Source: a virus (lineage: Duplodnaviria; Caudoviricetes). From it: a DNA stretch of 64,000 nucleotides. The number at the start of each line of letters is the position of its first letter. The stretch's first letter is position 1. Below, piece after piece: positions 23,167 to 58,305 of this stretch. The stretch lies in IMG/VR virus record IMGVR_UViG_3300021256_000012, positions 1,367 through 65,366 of that record. One strand, 5' to 3'. The notes beneath the pieces were generated by a model, which was given only the letters and a program-made list of their open reading frames with translations, was not told the origin of the DNA and did not search any database. Made by a program: the position numbers and the translations under genes.

Positions 23167-23444
23167 TCTTCTACCTCAATGTGCAAATAAGCTTCATCAG
23201 TGTCAAACCAACAAACTCGTATAGTTTTTACTGTTTTATCTTTTATTTTTCTATCTAAAAGAATTTTATCGTTAAGATAATCATGCTTATACCCAAGATA
23301 TTCTTCTTCACCACAAGTAACAAAGATATATTCTGTTTCAGGAATAAACTTTAATTGTTCTTCTAATGTCATTTTTTCCACCTTTTTAATCTTCTCCAAA
23401 CTTATGATCATCTTCCCAAAATTTAACAGCAATATATTCACCAA
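23163..23444 (-). CDS. hypothetical protein (small paralogue family; true start probably downstream)
   Basis: ORF track. Confidence 0.55.
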   Translation of the reverse strand: MVNILLLNFGKMIISLEKIKKVEKMTLEEQLKFIPETEYIFVTCGEEEYLGYKHDYLNDKILLDRKIKDKTVKTIRVCWFDTDEAYLHIEVEE

Positions 23445-23568
23445 TTAAGACTTTCCATGCGTCGTATAATCTGCTGAAAATAGAATCATCTGGTCGTGGT
23501 TTAGCTATATGCCAATTACCTTCTTTATCGTTAATTTGAATATTTTTTAAACTATCAATATGTCTCAT
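23386..23568 (-). CDS. 60-aa hypothetical protein, with decayed copy at 56339-56508
   Basis: IFSRLYDAWKVL.GEYIAVKFW shared with second copy. Confidence 0.7.
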   Translation of the reverse strand: MRHIDSLKNIQINDKEGNWHIAKPRPDDSIFSRLYDAWKVLIGEYIAVKFWEDDHKFGED

Positions 23569-53069: not shown

Positions 53070-53873
53070 ATGACAACTGTAAATTATGCTAATGTCATTT
53101 TAAAGGACGCTTCCGGTAACGTTGGTGTCGTACGTACACTTACTGCAGCAGACGTTGCAAAGGTACAGCAGGTTAAGACTGACGTTGCTCTAATTGTAGA
53201 TGCAACCACCCATCAGTTAATCACTGCTGACCAGACCACCTTTGGTGCAACCCGCATTGCAACTGCTGCTGAGTTAGCTGCCGGTACTGCAAACATCGCT
53301 GTTGACGCTGCTGCTTACAAGGCATTAGCTGACAAGATGGTATCAGGTGTTCACTACAAGGGCACTGTAGCTACCTACGCAGACCTGCCTGACCTATCAG
53401 ACGACCCAGCACCAGAAGCTGGCGATATGTACAACGTAACTGCTGCCTTCACCAAGGACGGTATTGCATACCCAGCAGGCACTAACGTTATCGCTTCAAT
53501 CACTGGTGATCCAGCTGTTCTTGATTGGGATGTTCTGGATGGTGATCCATCAGGCTATGCTAAGCAGGCTGTAGCTAACACCTTCACTGCTGCAAACACC
53601 TTCAACAACAACGTAACTGTTGCTGCTGCTTCAGGTGGTGCAACTCCTGCTGTAAACTTAACTGGTGCTGATGTTACCGTAGCTGACGCTGAGTTAGATA
53701 CTACTGATGCAGGCTATGTAGCAGCTGCTCCTGTTAACGCTGGCGTATTAAACGCAGCATTAACCGATGCTATTGAGGGCATTGTGAACTACGAGGCTTC
53801 AGAGCCAGCAGACACTTCAGCTCTTGATAACAACACTGTAACCTTCTTCCCTGCTTCAGACTTACTGTCTTAG
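53070..53873 (+). CDS. tail fibre protein 2
   Basis: Ala-rich; YKGTVATYADLP...GDMYNV fibre motif. Confidence 0.7.
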   Translation: MTTVNYANVILKDASGNVGVVRTLTAADVAKVQQVKTDVALIVDATTHQLITADQTTFGATRIATAAELAAGTANIAVDAAAYKALADKMVSGVHYKGTVATYADLPDLSDDPAPEAGDMYNVTAAFTKDGIAYPAGTNVIASITGDPAVLDWDVLDGDPSGYAKQAVANTFTAANTFNNNVTVAAASGGATPAVNLTGADVTVADAELDTTDAGYVAAAPVNAGVLNAALTDAIEGIVNYEASEPADTSALDNNTVTFFPASDLLS

Positions 53874-53992: not shown

Positions 53993-55135
53993 ATGACAGT
54001 TGTAAACAACGCAAGTGTAATCTTCAAGGACAAGAACGGTAATGTCGGCAAGGTTAAAGCACCTAGCGCTAATGACATTACAAAGATTAGCACCGCAATT
54101 TCTGACGTGGCACAGGTAGTTGATCCTACTTCTCATCTGCCAATTAACGCAACCACATCATCAGTAGGCGTAGTACAGCTTGCAGACAGCGCAGCCGTAG
54201 CAGCAGGTACATCAGGACGTGTGGTTGATGCAGCACAGCTTAAGGATGCTATTGAGCACGTGACCCCTGCAGGTAATCTGATGACCACTAACACAGCACA
54301 GACTGTATCAGCAGTCAAGACTTTCAGCACTCTGCCTGAGTCATCTGTCGTACCAACCTCAGCTAATCAGCTGGTGAACAAGCAGTACGTGGACGACCAC
54401 GCAATTCCAACACCAACCAACATGATGACCACTGACACAGCACAGACTGTATCAGCAGTTAAGACTTTCAGCACTCTGCCTGAGTCATCTGTAGCACCAA
54501 CTACAGCAAATCAGCTTGTAAACAAGACCTATGCTGACACCAAGGCAGACATTGAGGTAGCATCTACATATGCAGAGCCTGCTGTGGAGAACGGTATTCT
54601 GTTCGCTGCTACCAACTGTATTACAGCACCAGGTTCAGGCTCTACCTTCGCGGCACGTGGAGTTAAGACTGGTTCTGTAGAGTTATTTGCGGGTGCATCA
54701 GTACCAGAGGGATATCTGTTGTGCAATGGTGCTGCTGTAAGCAGAACTCTATATGCAGATTTGTTCGATGCCATTGGCACGATCTATGGTGCAGGTGACG
54801 GTTCCACCACCTTCAATGTACCTGACTTTAGAGACAGATACCCAATTGGCGTTGGTACTAATGTGCTCGGAACTAAGCTCGCAGAGCAGTTACCTAACAT
54901 ATTAGGTAACGTTGATACAAGATTATCTGTTTATAAACAAAATCCCCCAACTGGTGCTTATTCATCATCCGTATTAACTTCAGCAAATTCATATAATTGG
55001 AGTGCAAATACATCAGATAATTATATGGATATTTATTCAATTTTATTTAGAGCATCTTCTTCTAATTCCGTATACACCAATTCAGGCAAGGTATATCCTT
55101 TGAGCCTTGCCTTGAACTTCATTATCAAAGCCTAA
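53993..55135 (+). CDS. tail fibre protein 3 with tail-collar domain and variable tip
   Basis: YLLCNGAAVSRTLYADLF..IGTIYGAGDGSTTFNVPDFR collar motif; 48-aa tandem repeat. Confidence 0.9.
   Translation: MTVVNNASVIFKDKNGNVGKVKAPSANDITKISTAISDVAQVVDPTSHLPINATTSSVGVVQLADSAAVAAGTSGRVVDAAQLKDAIEHVTPAGNLMTTNTAQTVSAVKTFSTLPESSVVPTSANQLVNKQYVDDHAIPTPTNMMTTDTAQTVSAVKTFSTLPESSVAPTTANQLVNKTYADTKADIEVASTYAEPAVENGILFAATNCITAPGSGSTFAARGVKTGSVELFAGASVPEGYLLCNGAAVSRTLYADLFDAIGTIYGAGDGSTTFNVPDFRDRYPIGVGTNVLGTKLAEQLPNILGNVDTRLSVYKQNPPTGAYSSSVLTSANSYNWSANTSDNYMDIYSILFRASSSNSVYTNSGKVYPLSLALNFIIKA
54275..54540 (+). repeat. 144-bp-period tandem duplication in fibre 3
   Basis: MTT.TAQTVSAVKTFSTLPESSV.PT.ANQLVNK twice. 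Confidence 0.9.
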
Positions 55136-55365
55136 GCCTTAATGATGAAATTTAATGCCAACGACAGCGGGTATACTTTTCCGCTGTCAGTGTATACAGA
55201 GTTGGAATTAGATGCATGAAAAGAAAGCTGTTGGAAGTAGTTTGCTGTACCCGTAGGTGACGCTGTTTTACCTCCTAAATAAGAACTGCTAAATGCGAAC
55301 GTAGCATTAACACCATTACCAGCGACCATGTTACCTGAGAGTTCTCCAGTAATGTTCGGTAATCG
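55132..55365 (-). other. silent inverted alternative tail-fibre tip cassette
   Basis: Encodes RLPNITG-variable-SNSVYTDSGKVYPLSLALNFIIKA; stop overlaps fibre 3 stop; no collar domain or convincing start. Confidence 0.85.
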
Positions 55366-55366
55366 C

Positions 55367-55392
55367 AAAGACCTCCACATGGGGGTCTTTTT
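55367..55392 (+). terminator. intrinsic terminator after the inverted cassette
   Basis: AAAGACCTCC-acat-GGGGGTCTTT-TT. Confidence 0.7.
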
Positions 55393-55525
55393 GATCTCCC
55401 ACACAATTTACATATGATTTAGGTATCATTTTAGATAGGGAAATTGTGCTAATTTATTGTATATTCCATTAGAACACTTATAATTTATTTAGATATAAAC
55501 GTTTATATATTCAATGGAGTTTCCT

Positions 55526-56125
55526 ATGGCAACTATCCTACCTGCAAATTTTGCATTTAAAGACGCCGATGGTGACGTCGGCACTGTCAAATCATTGACT
55601 AACGCAGATATTACACTGCTTAATACAGCCCTTCAGGACATTGAAGACTTAAAGTTATGTATTGACGACCCAGCACCAGTGGGCTTTATTGGATTGTGGG
55701 GTGATGATACCGTTCCATCAGGCTGGTTGTTATGTAACGGAGCCGCAGTTTCACGTACTACATACGCGGGACTGTTCGCAAAGATTGGCACACGTTATGG
55801 CGTAGGCGATGGTTCTTCAACCTTTAACCTCCCTGACATGAGAGACCGCTACCCAATCGGTGTTGGTACAAACGTACTGGCAACTAAGATAGCAGAACAG
55901 TTACCAAATATTACTGGTCAAATAGGTCGAAACTATACGGAGATAGAGATTTCTAATGGAGCATTTGTTAGAAATTCAGTTTCGGGTCAAAATGTTTCTT
56001 TAACAGTCGCTGATGGAGCATGGTCGATTGTTGATTTTACTGCAACACACAGTAATTCAATCTACACCGACAACGGCAAAGTTTACCCTCTATCTCTAGC
56101 CTTGAACTTCATCATTAAAACTTAA
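55526..56125 (+). CDS. short tail fibre protein 4 with tail-collar domain and third tip variant
   Basis: Collar motif; EQLPNITG...KVYPLSLALNFIIKT. Confidence 0.9.
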   Translation: MATILPANFAFKDADGDVGTVKSLTNADITLLNTALQDIEDLKLCIDDPAPVGFIGLWGDDTVPSGWLLCNGAAVSRTTYAGLFAKIGTRYGVGDGSSTFNLPDMRDRYPIGVGTNVLATKIAEQLPNITGQIGRNYTEIEISNGAFVRNSVSGQNVSLTVADGAWSIVDFTATHSNSIYTDNGKVYPLSLALNFIIKT

Positions 56126-56167
56126 TCTTCTATAATAGATAAAAGATAAGTTTTTAAGGAGATTCTT

Positions 56168-56326
56168 ATGAAGATGAAATATAAGAAATACACAAAATTG
56201 TATATGTATTACTTAAGAGTGCAACATACAAATCATTTGGCTGAAATATTCAATTTTAGAAATGCGCTTTGTATGGGGCATTGGAATAGACTTAAGTATT
56301 TGCATAAGAAAGTAATGGAAATGTAA
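56168..56326 (+). CDS. 52-aa basic moron protein (not in track)
   Basis: Own TATAAT and SD AAGGAG; AT-rich. Confidence 0.55.
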   Translation: MKMKYKKYTKLYMYYLRVQHTNHLAEIFNFRNALCMGHWNRLKYLHKKVMEM

Positions 56327-56331
56327 TAAAT

Positions 56332-56352
56332 AAGGCGGTTAATTACCGCCTT
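56332..56352. terminator. hairpin between convergent small genes
   Basis: AAGGCGGT-taatt-ACCGCCTT. Confidence 0.6.
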
Positions 56353-56508
56353 CTTCATCTTTCCAAAACTTAACCGCTATATATTCACCAGTGAGAACTT
56401 TCCAAGCGTCATATAATCTGCTGAAAATAGAGCTATTTACGCATGGCTTTTTAATATGCCATTCGCCCTTCTTATCCTGAATTTTCTATTAAAGTGTTAA
56501 TGCCTAAT
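56339..56508 (-). pseudogene. frameshifted copy of the 23386..23568 gene
   Basis: QDKKGEWHIKKP...SIFSRLYDAWKVLTGEYIAVKFW; 5' end disrupted. Confidence 0.75.
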
Positions 56509-56526
56509 CTCGAAGACCCAGTGGAA

Positions 56527-56546
56527 CCAGTAATGTTCGGTAATCG
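56527..56546 (-). repeat. 20-bp site identical to 55346-55365 (stub of a second inverted tip)
   Basis: CGATTACCGAACATTACTGG on - strand, encoding RLPNITG. Confidence 0.85.
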
Positions 56547-56806
56547 GTAAAAGTAATCTTTCGCTTCTTCCCACAATGATTATTTTTCATAACTATGTGA
56601 AGTGGTTCGAGTACCTACGGTATTGCTGGGTTTTATCCCGTGCTGTGGATTCTGCGTATGTGACTAAGGCGCATAGAAGCGATTTAGATATGCTGATTAG
56701 CTGATTATACACAGGATTAGGTGTTAAATTGTTACATGCGTTATAGTTTTTTTGTAACTGATAGCTATAATTAAAGTATCTTGAATTGCAATTTGAGGAT
56801 AAAACT

Positions 56807-57319
56807 ATGCTTACAGCTTATCGTTTTGACAACGAAGGATATTTCAACGGTACCTGCGCTGTGCAGGAAGATGGCCAGGGCGGTGTTCTTCTACCACCTG
56901 ACTGCAATATGGATGCACCTGTTATCCAGGAAGGCTACTTCGCACGTTTCGTAGACGGTGTATGGACTTCAGAGAAGATTCCTACCACCTGTGCAGAGGC
57001 AATTGAGCAGAACTTCACTGCTATCTCAAATGGCCCAGGTCAGCACAATCTTGAGAAGAGAGCTATTATCGAGGCTCTTGTAGCTGCCGATACCGAGAAT
57101 TATCGTACCAAAGTTGACGAGAACTTCATCATGTCAATCGAGGAAATTACTGAGGAAGAAAAGCAGGCTAAGGAAGACGAGGCTGCCAAGGCTGAGCTTG
57201 AGGCTGATATTGCAGCAGTTCGTGAGGATATGATGACTGCTATCGCTATCAATGACGACGAGTGGTTGGAAGAACTCAGAGCTGAGTACGAAGAGTTAGT
57301 AAACGGTGGGGAGAACTAA
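56807..57319 (+). CDS. tail fibre assembly chaperone-like protein
   Basis: AYRFDNEGYF...LPPDC...P...GY..RF..GVW pattern; after fibres. Confidence 0.7.
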   Translation: MLTAYRFDNEGYFNGTCAVQEDGQGGVLLPPDCNMDAPVIQEGYFARFVDGVWTSEKIPTTCAEAIEQNFTAISNGPGQHNLEKRAIIEALVAADTENYRTKVDENFIMSIEEITEEEKQAKEDEAAKAELEADIAAVREDMMTAIAINDDEWLEELRAEYEELVNGGEN

Positions 57320-57321
57320 TC

Positions 57322-57504
57322 ATGGCTAGAGTACGTACACGTTGCAAATACTGCGGTGCAAAGACCTTTGAGAAATATGGTTTACAGTGGTGTTCAAAGC
57401 CATGTGCACCTGGTGAGTTAGATCTGAAAGTTTACGAGGAAGAGCACCATTTAGGTGAGTATGCTTCCGAGGAAGACAACAAGAAGAAGTCTGAGGAGAA
57501 GTAA
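57322..57504 (+). CDS. small Cys-motif (Zn-binding-like) protein
   Basis: CKYC...CSKPC. Confidence 0.6.
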   Translation: MARVRTRCKYCGAKTFEKYGLQWCSKPCAPGELDLKVYEEEHHLGEYASEEDNKKKSEEK

Positions 57505-57505
57505 T

Positions 57506-57568
57506 ATGGCCTGCGGTGGTTCTTCAAAAGGAAAAGGCAGGGGCGGTAAAGGCCCAGGCCGTAAATAG
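57506..57568 (+). CDS. 20-aa Gly/Lys-rich peptide (not in track)
   Basis: SD GAGGAG; MACGGSSKGKGRGGKGPGRK. Confidence 0.5.
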   Translation: MACGGSSKGKGRGGKGPGRK

Positions 57569-57600
57569 ATTATCTCTAAAATAGCAAACAAACGAAACTT

Positions 57601-57630
57601 AAACCCCAGTCACAAGCTGGGGTTTTTATT
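57601..57630 (+). terminator. intrinsic terminator
   Basis: AAACCCCAG-tcacaag-CTGGGGTTTTT. Confidence 0.8.
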
Positions 57631-57723
57631 ATCATAAGGTGAACTATAATAGAAAAAGGAAACCGTGCATTTCTACACGGTTCAAACACATTTAGTTAAG
57701 ACTTTTGCTTGAGAGGAGTGCGT

Positions 57724-58305
57724 ATGATAGGCAAATTGATAAATTTATACAAACGACTCCGTTACGTATTGTACGAGACGGGGGATTACAATGTCAACCT
57801 CTTTGGTATACGTAACAGTAACGATACGCACTCCAATGGTTTCAACGATTATCTTGGTGTGCTGTACAGACTCAATGGTGAGTGGAAGATTTTTATGTGT
57901 GCGGGAACCACAGACCCAGGACTTACTTCACGTACTGTTCCTGTCAGTACCTTAGGCACAGCTATTCTCCCCTGTGGGCAGTATCCTAAGATGTTCCGCA
58001 TAGGAAAGCATAAGGGACAGTATGAGGCACTGGTGCAGAATACACCTGTCCCACTGTTTCGAGACCGTAATAAAGATGGAAAATTAGATTTCTGTAACTT
58101 ACAGCCCCCTGCTATGTGTGGTATAAATTTCCACAGAGCAAATGCAAATGTGAAGTCCAAGCAGGTTGACGGCTGGTCAGCTGGCTGTCAGGTAGTTGCT
58201 GACCCTAAGGACTTCGCTGAGATAATGCGGATTATTAAAGAGTCTGCCAAACGCTATGGGAATGTATTCACCTACACCCTTTTTGATATTAAGGATCTGG
58301 TATAG
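57724..58305 (+). CDS. endolysin candidate, L,D-transpeptidase (YkuD)-like cysteine peptidase
   Basis: H-x14-SAGC motif; heads the holin-spanin cluster. Confidence 0.7.
   Translation: MIGKLINLYKRLRYVLYETGDYNVNLFGIRNSNDTHSNGFNDYLGVLYRLNGEWKIFMCAGTTDPGLTSRTVPVSTLGTAILPCGQYPKMFRIGKHKGQYEALVQNTPVPLFRDRNKDGKLDFCNLQPPAMCGINFHRANANVKSKQVDGWSAGCQVVADPKDFAEIMRIIKESAKRYGNVFTYTLFDIKDLV

What the first reader, a model, noticed from the sequence alone, without database searches (positions are those of the whole stretch)
54887..56546. Tail-fibre tip-switching locus with a silent inverted tip but no phage recombinase
Seen: fibre 3 ends collar-QLPNI-[variable]-SNSVYT.SGKVYPLSLALNFIIKA. Back-to-back with it, with overlapping stop codons at 55132-55135, is an inverted, intact tip (RLPNITG-[different variable region]-same C-terminus). 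That tip has no collar domain and no good start, and lies inside the fibre-3 transcript before a terminator. Fibre 4 carries a third tip, and a second inverted LPNITG site occurs at 56527-56546. Known: this constant-plus-inverted-variable layout is the logic of Mu Gin, P1 Cin and p15B Min host-range switches, but those encode an adjacent invertase. Inference: inversion at the TTACCnAAyAT core would fuse the silent tip in frame, giving a host-range switch run by a host recombinase in trans or by short-homology recombination.
Basis: partly seen in the sequence, partly recalled or inferred. Interest (0 to 1): 0.82.

Follow-up and report, generated by a model that had tools for sequence, protein, structure and literature searches.

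The report
Tail-fibre shufflon that lost its invertase
This ruminant-gut phage keeps a spare, upside-down tip for its tail fibre. It is the remains of a known kind of DNA-flipping host-range switch whose own recombinase gene has been deleted, so the switch is probably frozen, not run by a host enzyme.

Summary
Two of the sites are exact 20-nt copies.

The proposed driver is not supported. The complete 65-kb genome has no recombinase, but window 56594-56704 holds the last 36 codons of a tyrosine recombinase gene.

- **Close relatives:** L136 has the same layout with four intact tips and an intact 340-aa recombinase at exactly this position. L151 also keeps this end of the recombinase gene, running on upstream of the window's break.
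- **Distant relatives:** L002, L004 and L008 carry 4-6 cassettes beside a 44%-identical recombinase. The same cassettes appear there in different orders and expressed positions.
- **Within the lineage:** one tip is silent behind fibre 3 in L136 and expressed on fibre 4 in L148. The window's tip pair is flipped relative to L136 and L150.

So this is the relic of a tyrosine-recombinase tail-fibre shufflon, the kind known from the Rin and BV01 systems. The invertase gene is deleted and the second spare tip is reduced to a 12-codon stub, so the switch is most likely locked. L148 lost the recombinase independently. This scan has already noted over 100 phage shufflons on other DNA, including one that lost its enzyme. 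Interest is modest.

The parts
53993..55135 (+). Fibre 3 gene (380 aa): shared N-terminal module, two ~48-aa repeats, Collar domain, then tip A
   Evidence: ORF. Pfam Collar E 8e-22 and PHROG tail-fibre families. 77-89% nt identity to fibre 3 of L136, L149 and L150.
54887..54909 (+). Site A, CAGTTACCTAACATATTAGGTAA, coding QLPNILG. It is near-palindromic and departs from the usual ATTACNGG
54890..55135 (+). Tip A, expressed on fibre 3 (81 aa from LPNI to the stop); C-terminal codon flavour 2
55132..55362 (-). Tip B: a silent, intact inverted cassette (76 aa from LPNITG to the stop) with no Collar domain and no credible start; codon flavour 1
   Evidence: Tips 45-54% identical sit at the C-termini of full-length Collar fibres elsewhere.
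55346..55365 (-). Site B, CGATTACCGAACATTACTGG, coding RLPNITG
   Evidence: Exact 20-nt copy of site D.
55362..55395 (+). Hairpin plus T-run: the likely terminator of the fibre-3 transcript. It is conserved next to the inverted sites of L136, L148 and L150
   Evidence: -17.8 kcal/mol, z -4.7. Flanks compared.
55514..56125 (+). Fibre 4 gene (203 aa, or 199 aa from the second ATG): N-terminal module, Collar domain and tip C, behind its own AT-rich upstream region
   Evidence: 86% nt identity to L136 and L148.
55898..55918 (+). Site C, CAGTTACCAAATATTACTGGT, coding QLPNITG
56126..56510 (.). About 385 bp that stand where relatives have tip D. Contents: a 52-aa ORF (56168-56326, +); a two-way hairpin (56332-56352); and a frameshifted copy (about 56339-56510, -) of the phage's own early gene 23386-23568
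   Evidence: No similarity to L136 or L148 here. 76% nt identity to 23408-23537. Members of the same small-protein family are listed.
56511..56546 (-). Site D (56527-56546, the exact copy of B) plus the 12-codon stub RLPNITGSTGSSR, all that is left of tip D. The frame stops after 23 codons (LPNITG...ENSG)
56547..56593 (.). 47 nt of unrelated filler at the deletion junction. Relatives have a terminator, a promoter and recombinase codons 1-304 here
56594..56704 (+). 3' remnant (36 codons plus stop) of the shufflon tyrosine recombinase gene
   Evidence: tblastn with the L136 recombinase: residues 305-339, 94% identity, E 2e-16. 15 synonymous against 3 non-synonymous codon differences. L151 carries residues 275-339 and is collinear with the window from 56592 onwards.
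56807..57319 (+). Conserved gene downstream of the switch, homologous to the N-terminal half of the DUF4376 protein that follows the recombinase in L002, L008 and L145. Possibly a fibre-assembly protein
   Evidence: tblastn E 2e-18. 76-88% identity to L136, L137 and L148. Synteny.

Best explanation
The locus is the relic of a tail-fibre shufflon driven by a phage-encoded tyrosine recombinase.

In the intact form (relative L136) there are four 17-20-bp sites coding (Q/R)LPNITG, in the order + - + -. They bound three invertible segments:
1. tipA-> <-tipB
2. a terminator, the fibre-4 promoter and the fibre-4 N-terminal part
3. tipC-> <-tipD

A 340-aa P4-integrase-like recombinase without an arm-binding domain is encoded just after the last site. 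It inverts DNA between oppositely oriented sites, so either fibre's constant N-terminal part can receive a different ~75-aa tip. The tip presumably binds the receptor.

In the window's phage two things have been lost. The recombinase gene is deleted except for its last 36 codons. Tip D has been replaced by unrelated DNA, leaving a 12-codon stub. The genome is therefore most likely locked with fibre 3 carrying tip A and fibre 4 carrying tip C. Tip B is an intact but unexpressed leftover. It could be used again only if the recombinase came in trans, for example from a co-infecting relative, or through rare homologous recombination.

Shown: the anatomy, the remnant, the intact system in relatives, and rearranged cassettes among relatives.
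Inferred: that the recombinase catalyses the inversions, that the tips set host range, and that this genome no longer switches.
For: 1. **Remnant.** Window 56594-56704 matches residues 305-339 of the L136 recombinase at 94% identity, E 2e-16. L151 is 90% identical to the window from 56592 onwards and carries recombinase residues 275-339 upstream of that point.
2. **Intact relative.** L136 is 77-86% identical in nt and has the same order: fibre 1, fibre 2, fibre 3, inverted tip, fibre 4, inverted tip, terminator, PF00589 recombinase, downstream gene. It has four sites and four intact tips.
3. **The module travels as a unit.** A myovirus-type backbone (L002, L004, L008, L142) has one Collar fibre, 4-6 alternating cassettes at (L/G)PNI(T/I)G sites and a recombinase 44% identical to that of L136. 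Named phage and plasmid integrases are at most 33% identical. Other members of the recombinase clade sit in tail or tail-fibre gene neighbourhoods.
4. **Rearrangement is real.** L002, L004 and L008 carry the same cassettes in different order, orientation and expressed position. Tip 136_B, silent behind fibre 3 in L136, matches tip 148_C, expressed on fibre 4 in L148 (65/78 aa, 199/234 nt).
5. **Flipped pairs.** The invariant KVYPLSLALNFIIK tail comes in two codon flavours, and each back-to-back pair has one of each (5 of 5 pairs). The window's A/B pair and L148's C/D pair are flipped relative to L136, L150 and L137. A goat-gut contig joins 54900 to 55200 on the opposite strand.
6. **No recombinase in the genome.** Searches found none in the complete record. 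The junction is present with 0 mismatches in an independent Logan contig of the source sample.
7. **Past selection.** Tips A and B differ at 19 of 24 C-terminal codons synonymously and at 1 non-synonymously.
Against: - No raw reads were available, only contigs. Low-level inversion in this genotype cannot be excluded.
- Tip B is still intact. A second relative that lost the recombinase independently (L148 with L150) also keeps intact silent tips. That fits a recent loss, but it also fits continued use through a recombinase supplied in trans.
- Several early ORFs have no match in any family library, so an unrecognised recombinase is not formally excluded.
- That this recombinase is the invertase rests on adjacency and co-inheritance. 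There is no biochemical evidence.
Confidence: 0.8

Rival explanations
1. The switch still works in this phage, but at population level. The recombinase comes in trans from co-infecting relatives that keep the gene, or from a related prophage. The genomes without it keep usable sites and spare tips and 'borrow' the enzyme.
For: Relatives with the recombinase occur in animal-gut metagenomes like those that hold the window's phage. Sites B, C and D are canonical, and B and D are identical. Tip B is intact. An independently recombinase-less relative also keeps both silent tips intact.
Against: There is no evidence of mixed orientation: the source sample's contigs show one form only. Tip D is destroyed, so C x D or A x D inversion would make truncated fibres. 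Site A departs from the usual core. Intact cassettes are equally expected after a recent loss, and the remnant's 15:3 ratio of synonymous to non-synonymous changes suggests the loss is recent.
Confidence: 0.12
2. One reading: a host-encoded recombinase, or short-homology recombination, flips the segment as a designed switch without an invertase of its own.
For: No recombinase in the complete genome. The inverted sites are in frame.
Against: The remnant of the cognate recombinase gene, together with recombinase-bearing relatives, shows that its absence is a deletion. The nearest homologue found in 185,579 species genomes is only 27-31% identical, an ordinary integrase. Sites A and B share only about 11 contiguous similar bases, which is poor substrate for homologous recombination.
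Confidence: 0.05
3. The inverted cassette is an independent small gene, or a chance or duplication product unrelated to inversion.
For: A 90-aa ORF with a GTG start exists.
Against: It has no Shine-Dalgarno sequence, and the start lies within the terminator hairpin region. It lacks the Collar part that all full-length homologues have. The same cassette layout with sites recurs in many relatives. The chance expectation for the sites is about 0.01.
Confidence: 0.03

Closest known systems
Rin shufflon of Bifidobacterium breve/longum prophages (Mavrich et al. 2018, PMC6109161)
   Same: A phage-encoded tyrosine recombinase sits next to alternating-orientation cassettes. The cassettes replace the C-terminal part of a receptor-binding or tail-fibre protein. 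Short asymmetric crossover sites head each cassette. Different arrangements are seen among related genomes.
   Different: Rin has one constant N-terminal gene, an 11-bp rix site (TTCCCTAACCC) and an unrelated receptor-binding protein, in temperate siphophages of Actinobacteria. Here there are two constant fibre genes with Collar domains, 17-20-bp sites coding LPNITG, and a P4-integrase-like recombinase clade. The genome looks lytic (DNA polymerase, primase-helicase, giant ejection protein, no integrase). In the window itself the recombinase is deleted.
R64 / IncI1 plasmid shufflon with Rci (Komano 1999, cited in PMC13418256; from my own knowledge)
   Same: Multiple inversions by a tyrosine recombinase encoded next to the segments. 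Head-to-head cassette pairs give alternative C-termini to one protein (PilV). The sites lie within coding sequence.
   Different: It sits on a plasmid and changes a pilus adhesin, not a phage fibre. The recombinase here shows no particular closeness to plasmid recombinases: 27-29% identity in the plasmid matches listed.
BV01-like Phocaeicola phage tail-fibre shufflon (PMC13596623, preprint 2026)
   Same: A multi-cassette inversion window flanked by a recombinase overlaps the distal end of a tail-fibre gene. All configurations were seen in reads.
   Different: Different motif (TGGGAGAACT), host and fibre. It is active, with its recombinase present.
Gin (Mu), Cin (P1), Min (p15B), Pin (e14): Din-family serine invertases
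   Same: A constant N-terminal fibre part with alternative inverted C-terminal parts, and host range as the presumed output.
   Different: These are serine recombinases with 26-bp sites and a Fis-dependent enhancer (from my own knowledge). PF00239 is absent here, and the relatives' enzyme is PF00589. The fibre-assembly gene is not inside the invertible DNA here.
Programmed inversions in 'phage tail collar' genes and their DUF2612, tail-protein-I and tail-fibre-assembly neighbourhoods (Milman et al. 2023, PMC9881135)
   Same: That survey lists tail fibre proteins, DUF2612 proteins, tail-fibre-assembly proteins and tyrosine recombinases as enriched at gene-altering inversions. This matches the L002 and L145 type of locus.
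   Different: It is a survey of bacterial genomes. This recombinase clade, the LPNITG site and the two-fibre podovirus-type version are not described there, as far as I read.

Membership tests
Tyrosine-recombinase shufflon (Rci / Rin type) | Two or more DNA segments bounded by short repeats in inverted orientation | tested here: met
   Four sites in the order + - + -. 5 pattern matches against 0.01 expected. B and D are exact 20-mers.
Tyrosine-recombinase shufflon (Rci / Rin type) | Alternative C-terminal coding cassettes that join in frame to a constant N-terminal coding part at the repeat | tested here: met
   Tips A, B and C all start at LPNI in frame. Tip D is only a stub.
Tyrosine-recombinase shufflon (Rci / Rin type) | A dedicated tyrosine recombinase gene next to the segments | tested here: not met
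   Only the last 36 codons remain, at 56594-56704. There is no PF00589 match in the genome. The feature is met in relatives L136, L002, L008, L145 and L149; L151 holds the 3' part of the gene.
Tyrosine-recombinase shufflon (Rci / Rin type) | Several arrangements of the same segments seen in a population or among near relatives | tested here: inconclusive
   For this genotype only one arrangement is seen, and only contigs were available. Among relatives the answer is yes: permuted cassettes in L002, L004 and L008; 136_B matches 148_C; flipped codon-flavour pairs.
Tyrosine recombinase superfamily (for the relatives' enzyme) | PF00589 catalytic domain with the conserved Arg, His-x-x-Arg, His and Tyr motifs | tested here: met
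   PF00589 and Phage_int_M matches. SMxR, HGLRxTGRT, AHxxG and ERxYxRGDY are invariant in alignment A1. Assigning catalytic roles to these residues is inference. A single-sequence search found no solved structure.
Din-family serine invertase switch (Gin / Cin / Min / Pin) | A serine recombinase (Resolvase domain, PF00239) adjacent to the segment | tested here: not met
   No PF00239 in the genome. The relatives' enzyme is a tyrosine recombinase.
Din-family serine invertase switch (Gin / Cin / Min / Pin) | 26-bp gix/cix-type crossover sites and a Fis-bound enhancer | not tested
   The site sequence here, TTACCNAAYATTACNGG, bears no evident resemblance. No formal comparison was run.
Phage tail Collar-domain fibre (PF07484) | Collar domain above the Pfam cut-off | tested here: met
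   Fibre 3 scores 77 bits and fibre 4 scores 79 bits, against a cut-off of 24.

The most novel reading that the evidence does not exclude
Loss of the invertase may be a recurrent and selected event in this phage lineage. The window and L148 lost the gene by different deletions, and both are fixed with one tip pair in the 'flipped' state. Silent tips stay intact because the enzyme is still supplied in trans by co-infecting kin. Switching would then be a shared, population-level function, and recombinase-less genomes would be locked specialists that can be unlocked.
Probability: 0.12. Interest if true: 0.55.

Novelty: new member of a known kind. Interest (0 to 1): 0.3.

Why it matters
Tail-fibre shufflons let a phage carry several receptor specificities in one genome. 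This case adds three things.

- A previously undescribed recombinase clade and site, with LPNITG coded inside Collar-domain fibres. It is shared by two unrelated phage backbones in animal-gut (mostly ruminant) metagenomes.
- A version in which two separate fibre genes draw on one pool of tips.
- Clear examples of how such switches die: independent deletions of the invertase gene leave intact but stranded cassettes.

In practice, 'silent cassette but no invertase' should first be read as a decayed or locked shufflon. The flanks should be searched for recombinase remnants before a host-driven mechanism is proposed.

Tried and rejected
- **Phage collection, DNA search.** A megablast of the locus against 50,697 phage records gave no match.
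- **Exact site search.** The exact 20-mer has no other copy in IMG/VR.
- **Single-protein locus searches.** Searches in IMG/VR with the downstream gene and with the L136 recombinase found nothing. The fibre-3 search returned only distant Collar matches. Close relatives came instead from protein look-ups in Logan and ENA assemblies.
- **Laid runs.** All were contigs, not reads. The source sample shows one arrangement only. This says nothing about rare inversions, and the parts without cover in other runs are not evidence.
- **Leftover recombinase DNA.** tblastn with the L002 and L008 recombinases found nothing in the window. Only the closer L136 enzyme revealed the remnant.
- **Species genomes.** The genome-contig scan gave only 27-31% integrase homologues, one in a Succinatimonas MAG. 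That is too distant to name a host or a trans-acting enzyme.
- **Solved structures.** phmmer of the recombinase against PDB sequences gave no hit.
- **Site decay.** I checked whether sites are more degenerate in genomes without the recombinase. By my count from the site sequences, 4 of 8 sites there depart from ATHACNGG, against 1 of 7 in L136 plus L149. The numbers are too small, and the L002 group tolerates ATCATTGG, so I draw no conclusion.
- **Rejected readings.** A Gin/Cin-type serine system, because no PF00239 is present. Independent expression of tip B, because it has no ribosome-binding site and no Collar part.
Full report
**What is there**

The window is bases 1367-65366 of a 65,366-bp IMG/VR virus record. 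The record has direct terminal repeats and a CheckV completeness of 100%. The gene content looks like a lytic podovirus: family-A DNA polymerase, primase-helicase, helicase, exonuclease, internal virion proteins, a 2,586-aa protein, terminase and a head-tail adaptor (portal-position) protein.

Four fibre-like genes lie at 51.5-56.1 kb. Fibre 3 (53993-55135) and fibre 4 (55514-56125) have Pfam Collar domains (E about 1e-22). Both end in QLPNI(L/T)G, then about 50 variable residues, then SNS(V/I)YT..GKVYPLSLALNFIIK(A/T).

Back to back with fibre 3 is an inverted 90-aa frame (55132-55404) whose stop overlaps the fibre-3 stop. From RLPNITG onwards it is a third complete tip. It has no Collar part and no family match, and its GTG start has no ribosome-binding site. 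On the + strand it is followed by a strong hairpin and a T-run.

The pattern TTACCNAAYATNNNNGG occurs only at four places in 64 kb: 54890 (+), 55346 (-), 55901 (+) and 56527 (-). The chance expectation is 0.01. The two minus-strand sites are exact 20-nt copies.

**The missing enzyme is a deletion**

Six-frame searches of the whole record with PF00239 and PF00589 found nothing. PHROG or Pfam scans of 43 ORFs found no recombinase.

A protein search with the silent tip led to a 12-kb Logan contig, L136, that is 77-86% identical to the window. Its order is fibre 1, fibre 2, fibre 3, inverted tip, fibre 4, inverted tip, terminator, a 340-aa PF00589 tyrosine recombinase, and then the gene that follows the locus in the window. 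It has four sites at the same positions and orientations and four intact tips.

tblastn with this recombinase hits the window at 56594-56698 (residues 305-339, 94% identity, E 2e-16). The remnant runs to a stop at 56704. Compared with L136 it differs at 15 codons synonymously and at 3 non-synonymously. Most of the divergence therefore accumulated while the gene was under selection, so the deletion is probably recent.

A metagenome contig, L151, is 90% identical to the window from 56592 onwards. Upstream of that point it carries recombinase residues 275-304, including the ERSYIRGDY region, which the window lacks.

An independent Logan contig of the source sample covers 54463-58000 with no mismatch. 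The junction is therefore not an artefact of a single assembly.

**The second spare tip is also gone**

Relatives have tip D after fibre 4. The window instead has about 385 bp of other DNA:
- a 52-aa ORF;
- a two-way hairpin;
- a frameshifted, 76%-identical copy of the phage's own early gene 23386-23568. This gene belongs to a family of 59-120-aa proteins of unknown function.

Only RLPNITGSTGSSR survives behind site D.

**The module is a shufflon in relatives**

A myovirus-type backbone (L002, L004, L008, L142; Baseplate_J and DUF2612 upstream) has one Collar fibre and 4-6 cassettes in alternating orientation. Each cassette begins at (L/G)PNI(T/I)G. Next to them lie a 393-aa tyrosine recombinase and a DUF4376 gene homologous to window 56807-57319.

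That recombinase is 44% identical to the one in L136. Named phage and plasmid integrases are at most 33% identical. Other members of the clade also sit in tail or tail-fibre gene neighbourhoods.

Three contigs from one metagenome (L002, L004, L008) hold the same cassettes (KFGIIW, IFTTHN, xLYLVT, SSFIIT) in different order, orientation and expressed position. This is the signature of a multiple-inversion system. Several contigs also end inside or just after the fibre tip, as expected where an assembly meets invertible DNA.

**Rearrangement within the window's own lineage**

Tip 136_B is silent behind fibre 3 in L136. The same tip (65/78 aa, 199/234 nt) is expressed on fibre 4 in L148. Tips therefore move between silent and expressed positions, and between the two fibres.

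The invariant 14-residue tail KVYPLSLALNFIIK exists in two codon flavours. In all five back-to-back pairs one member has each flavour. It would keep the two arms from forming a long perfect inverted repeat.

In L136, L150 and the cassette-less L137, flavour 1 is the expressed one. In the window's A/B pair and in L148's C/D pair, flavour 2 is expressed and flavour 1 is silent. Tip A differs from the silent 136_D and 150_B by 2-4 of 42 nt. Tip B differs from the expressed L137 tip by 4 nt.

L136 and L150 align with the window's tip junction better in inverted orientation. A goat-gut contig joins 54900 to 55200 on the opposite strand.

The window's segment thus appears to have been inverted at some time in its ancestry. 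The variable cores differ even between close relatives, so cassette replacement by ordinary recombination between the conserved ends also occurs.

**Loss of the invertase is recurrent**

L148 comes from the same sample as L150 and overlaps it. It keeps intact tips C and D and the terminator, but only about the last 10 codons of the recombinase gene. Its breakpoints differ from the window's.

L137 has fibre 3 followed directly by the downstream gene, with no fibre 4, no cassettes and no recombinase. L149 and L153 have a more distant recombinase on the other strand.

**Interpretation**

The locus is the relic of a tyrosine-recombinase tail-fibre shufflon. With no recombinase, one spare tip destroyed and site A departing from the usual core, this genome is most likely locked as fibre 3 with tip A and fibre 4 with tip C (about 0.8).

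If an enzyme were supplied, two inversions would give whole fibres:
- A x B, giving fibre 3 with tip B;
- B x C, giving fibre 4 with tip B.

Inversions that use site D would truncate a fibre.

Trans-activation by co-infecting relatives that carry the recombinase cannot be excluded (about 0.12).

That the recombinase is the invertase, and that the tips set host range, are inferences. They rest on adjacency, on co-inheritance, and on analogy with Rin (PMC6109161), BV01 (PMC13596623) and the Gin-driven FRphi shufflon (PMC13418256).

**Novelty**

Phage tail-fibre shufflons run by tyrosine recombinases have been known since 2018. Tail collar and DUF2612 neighbourhoods appear in a survey of programmed inversions (PMC9881135). 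This scan already holds more than 100 such notes on other genomes, including a Gilliamella case that also lost its enzyme.

New here are the recombinase clade, the LPNITG site, the two-fibre version and the documented independent losses of the enzyme. I rate it a new member of a known kind, of modest interest.

Noticed in passing
window 55090-55180; L136 8541-8596 and 9711-9766; L148 638-686; L150 3663-3718: The invariant C-terminal 14 residues of the tips exist in two codon 'flavours'. Every back-to-back tip pair (5 of 5) has one of each, so the protein-level palindrome is not a DNA palindrome. This may be selection against long perfect inverted repeats.
   Followed up: partly
window 23386-23568 (-) and 56339-56510 (-): There is an intact 60-aa early gene and, beside site D, a 76%-identical frameshifted copy of it. 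The family (59-120 aa, motif G.WHIAKP...F.RL.DAWKVL.GE..AVKF) has no annotation in any library searched.
   Followed up: partly
window 54279-54403 and 54423-54547: A 125-nt direct repeat (85% identity) inside fibre 3 encodes a duplicated ~48-aa shaft module (...TDTAQTVSAVKTFSTLPESSV.PT.ANQLVNK.Y.D). The Logan contigs of the source sample break exactly here.
   Followed up: no
window 54887-54909: Site A (TTACCTAACATATTAGGTAA) is nearly a perfect palindrome and matches the site pattern on both strands. In the L002 group, internal sites occur as head-to-head 15-nt palindromic pairs separated by 1 nt. This may hint at the true recombinase-binding geometry.
   Followed up: no
L136 10095-11117, compared with L002 7605-8786 and L149 5294-6443: [quoted passage not shown] The enzymes of the myovirus-type relative L002 and of L149 keep it. 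In L149 and L153 the gene lies on the opposite strand.
   Followed up: partly
L146 1362-3180: In one contig a member of the same recombinase clade is followed by a tail-assembly-chaperone gene and a protein with an mtd_2nd domain, the fold of the major tropism determinant of diversity-generating retroelements.
   Followed up: no
L004, L007, L009, L023 and L026 (contig ends): Many IMG/VR contigs of the L002 group stop within a few tens to hundreds of bases after the fibre's LPNITG site. L004 and L139 are the two ends of one 50.7-kb contig that breaks inside the cassette array. This is a likely assembly signature of active inversion.
   Followed up: partly
window 53070-53150, 53993-54080, 55526-55610: Fibres 2, 3 and 4 share an N-terminal module (..N.(S/N)V(I/V)(F/L)KD..G(N/D)VG.V(K/R)....(A/N)D(I/V)(T/A)K(I/V/L)..). 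This suggests a common docking site on the virion.
   Followed up: no
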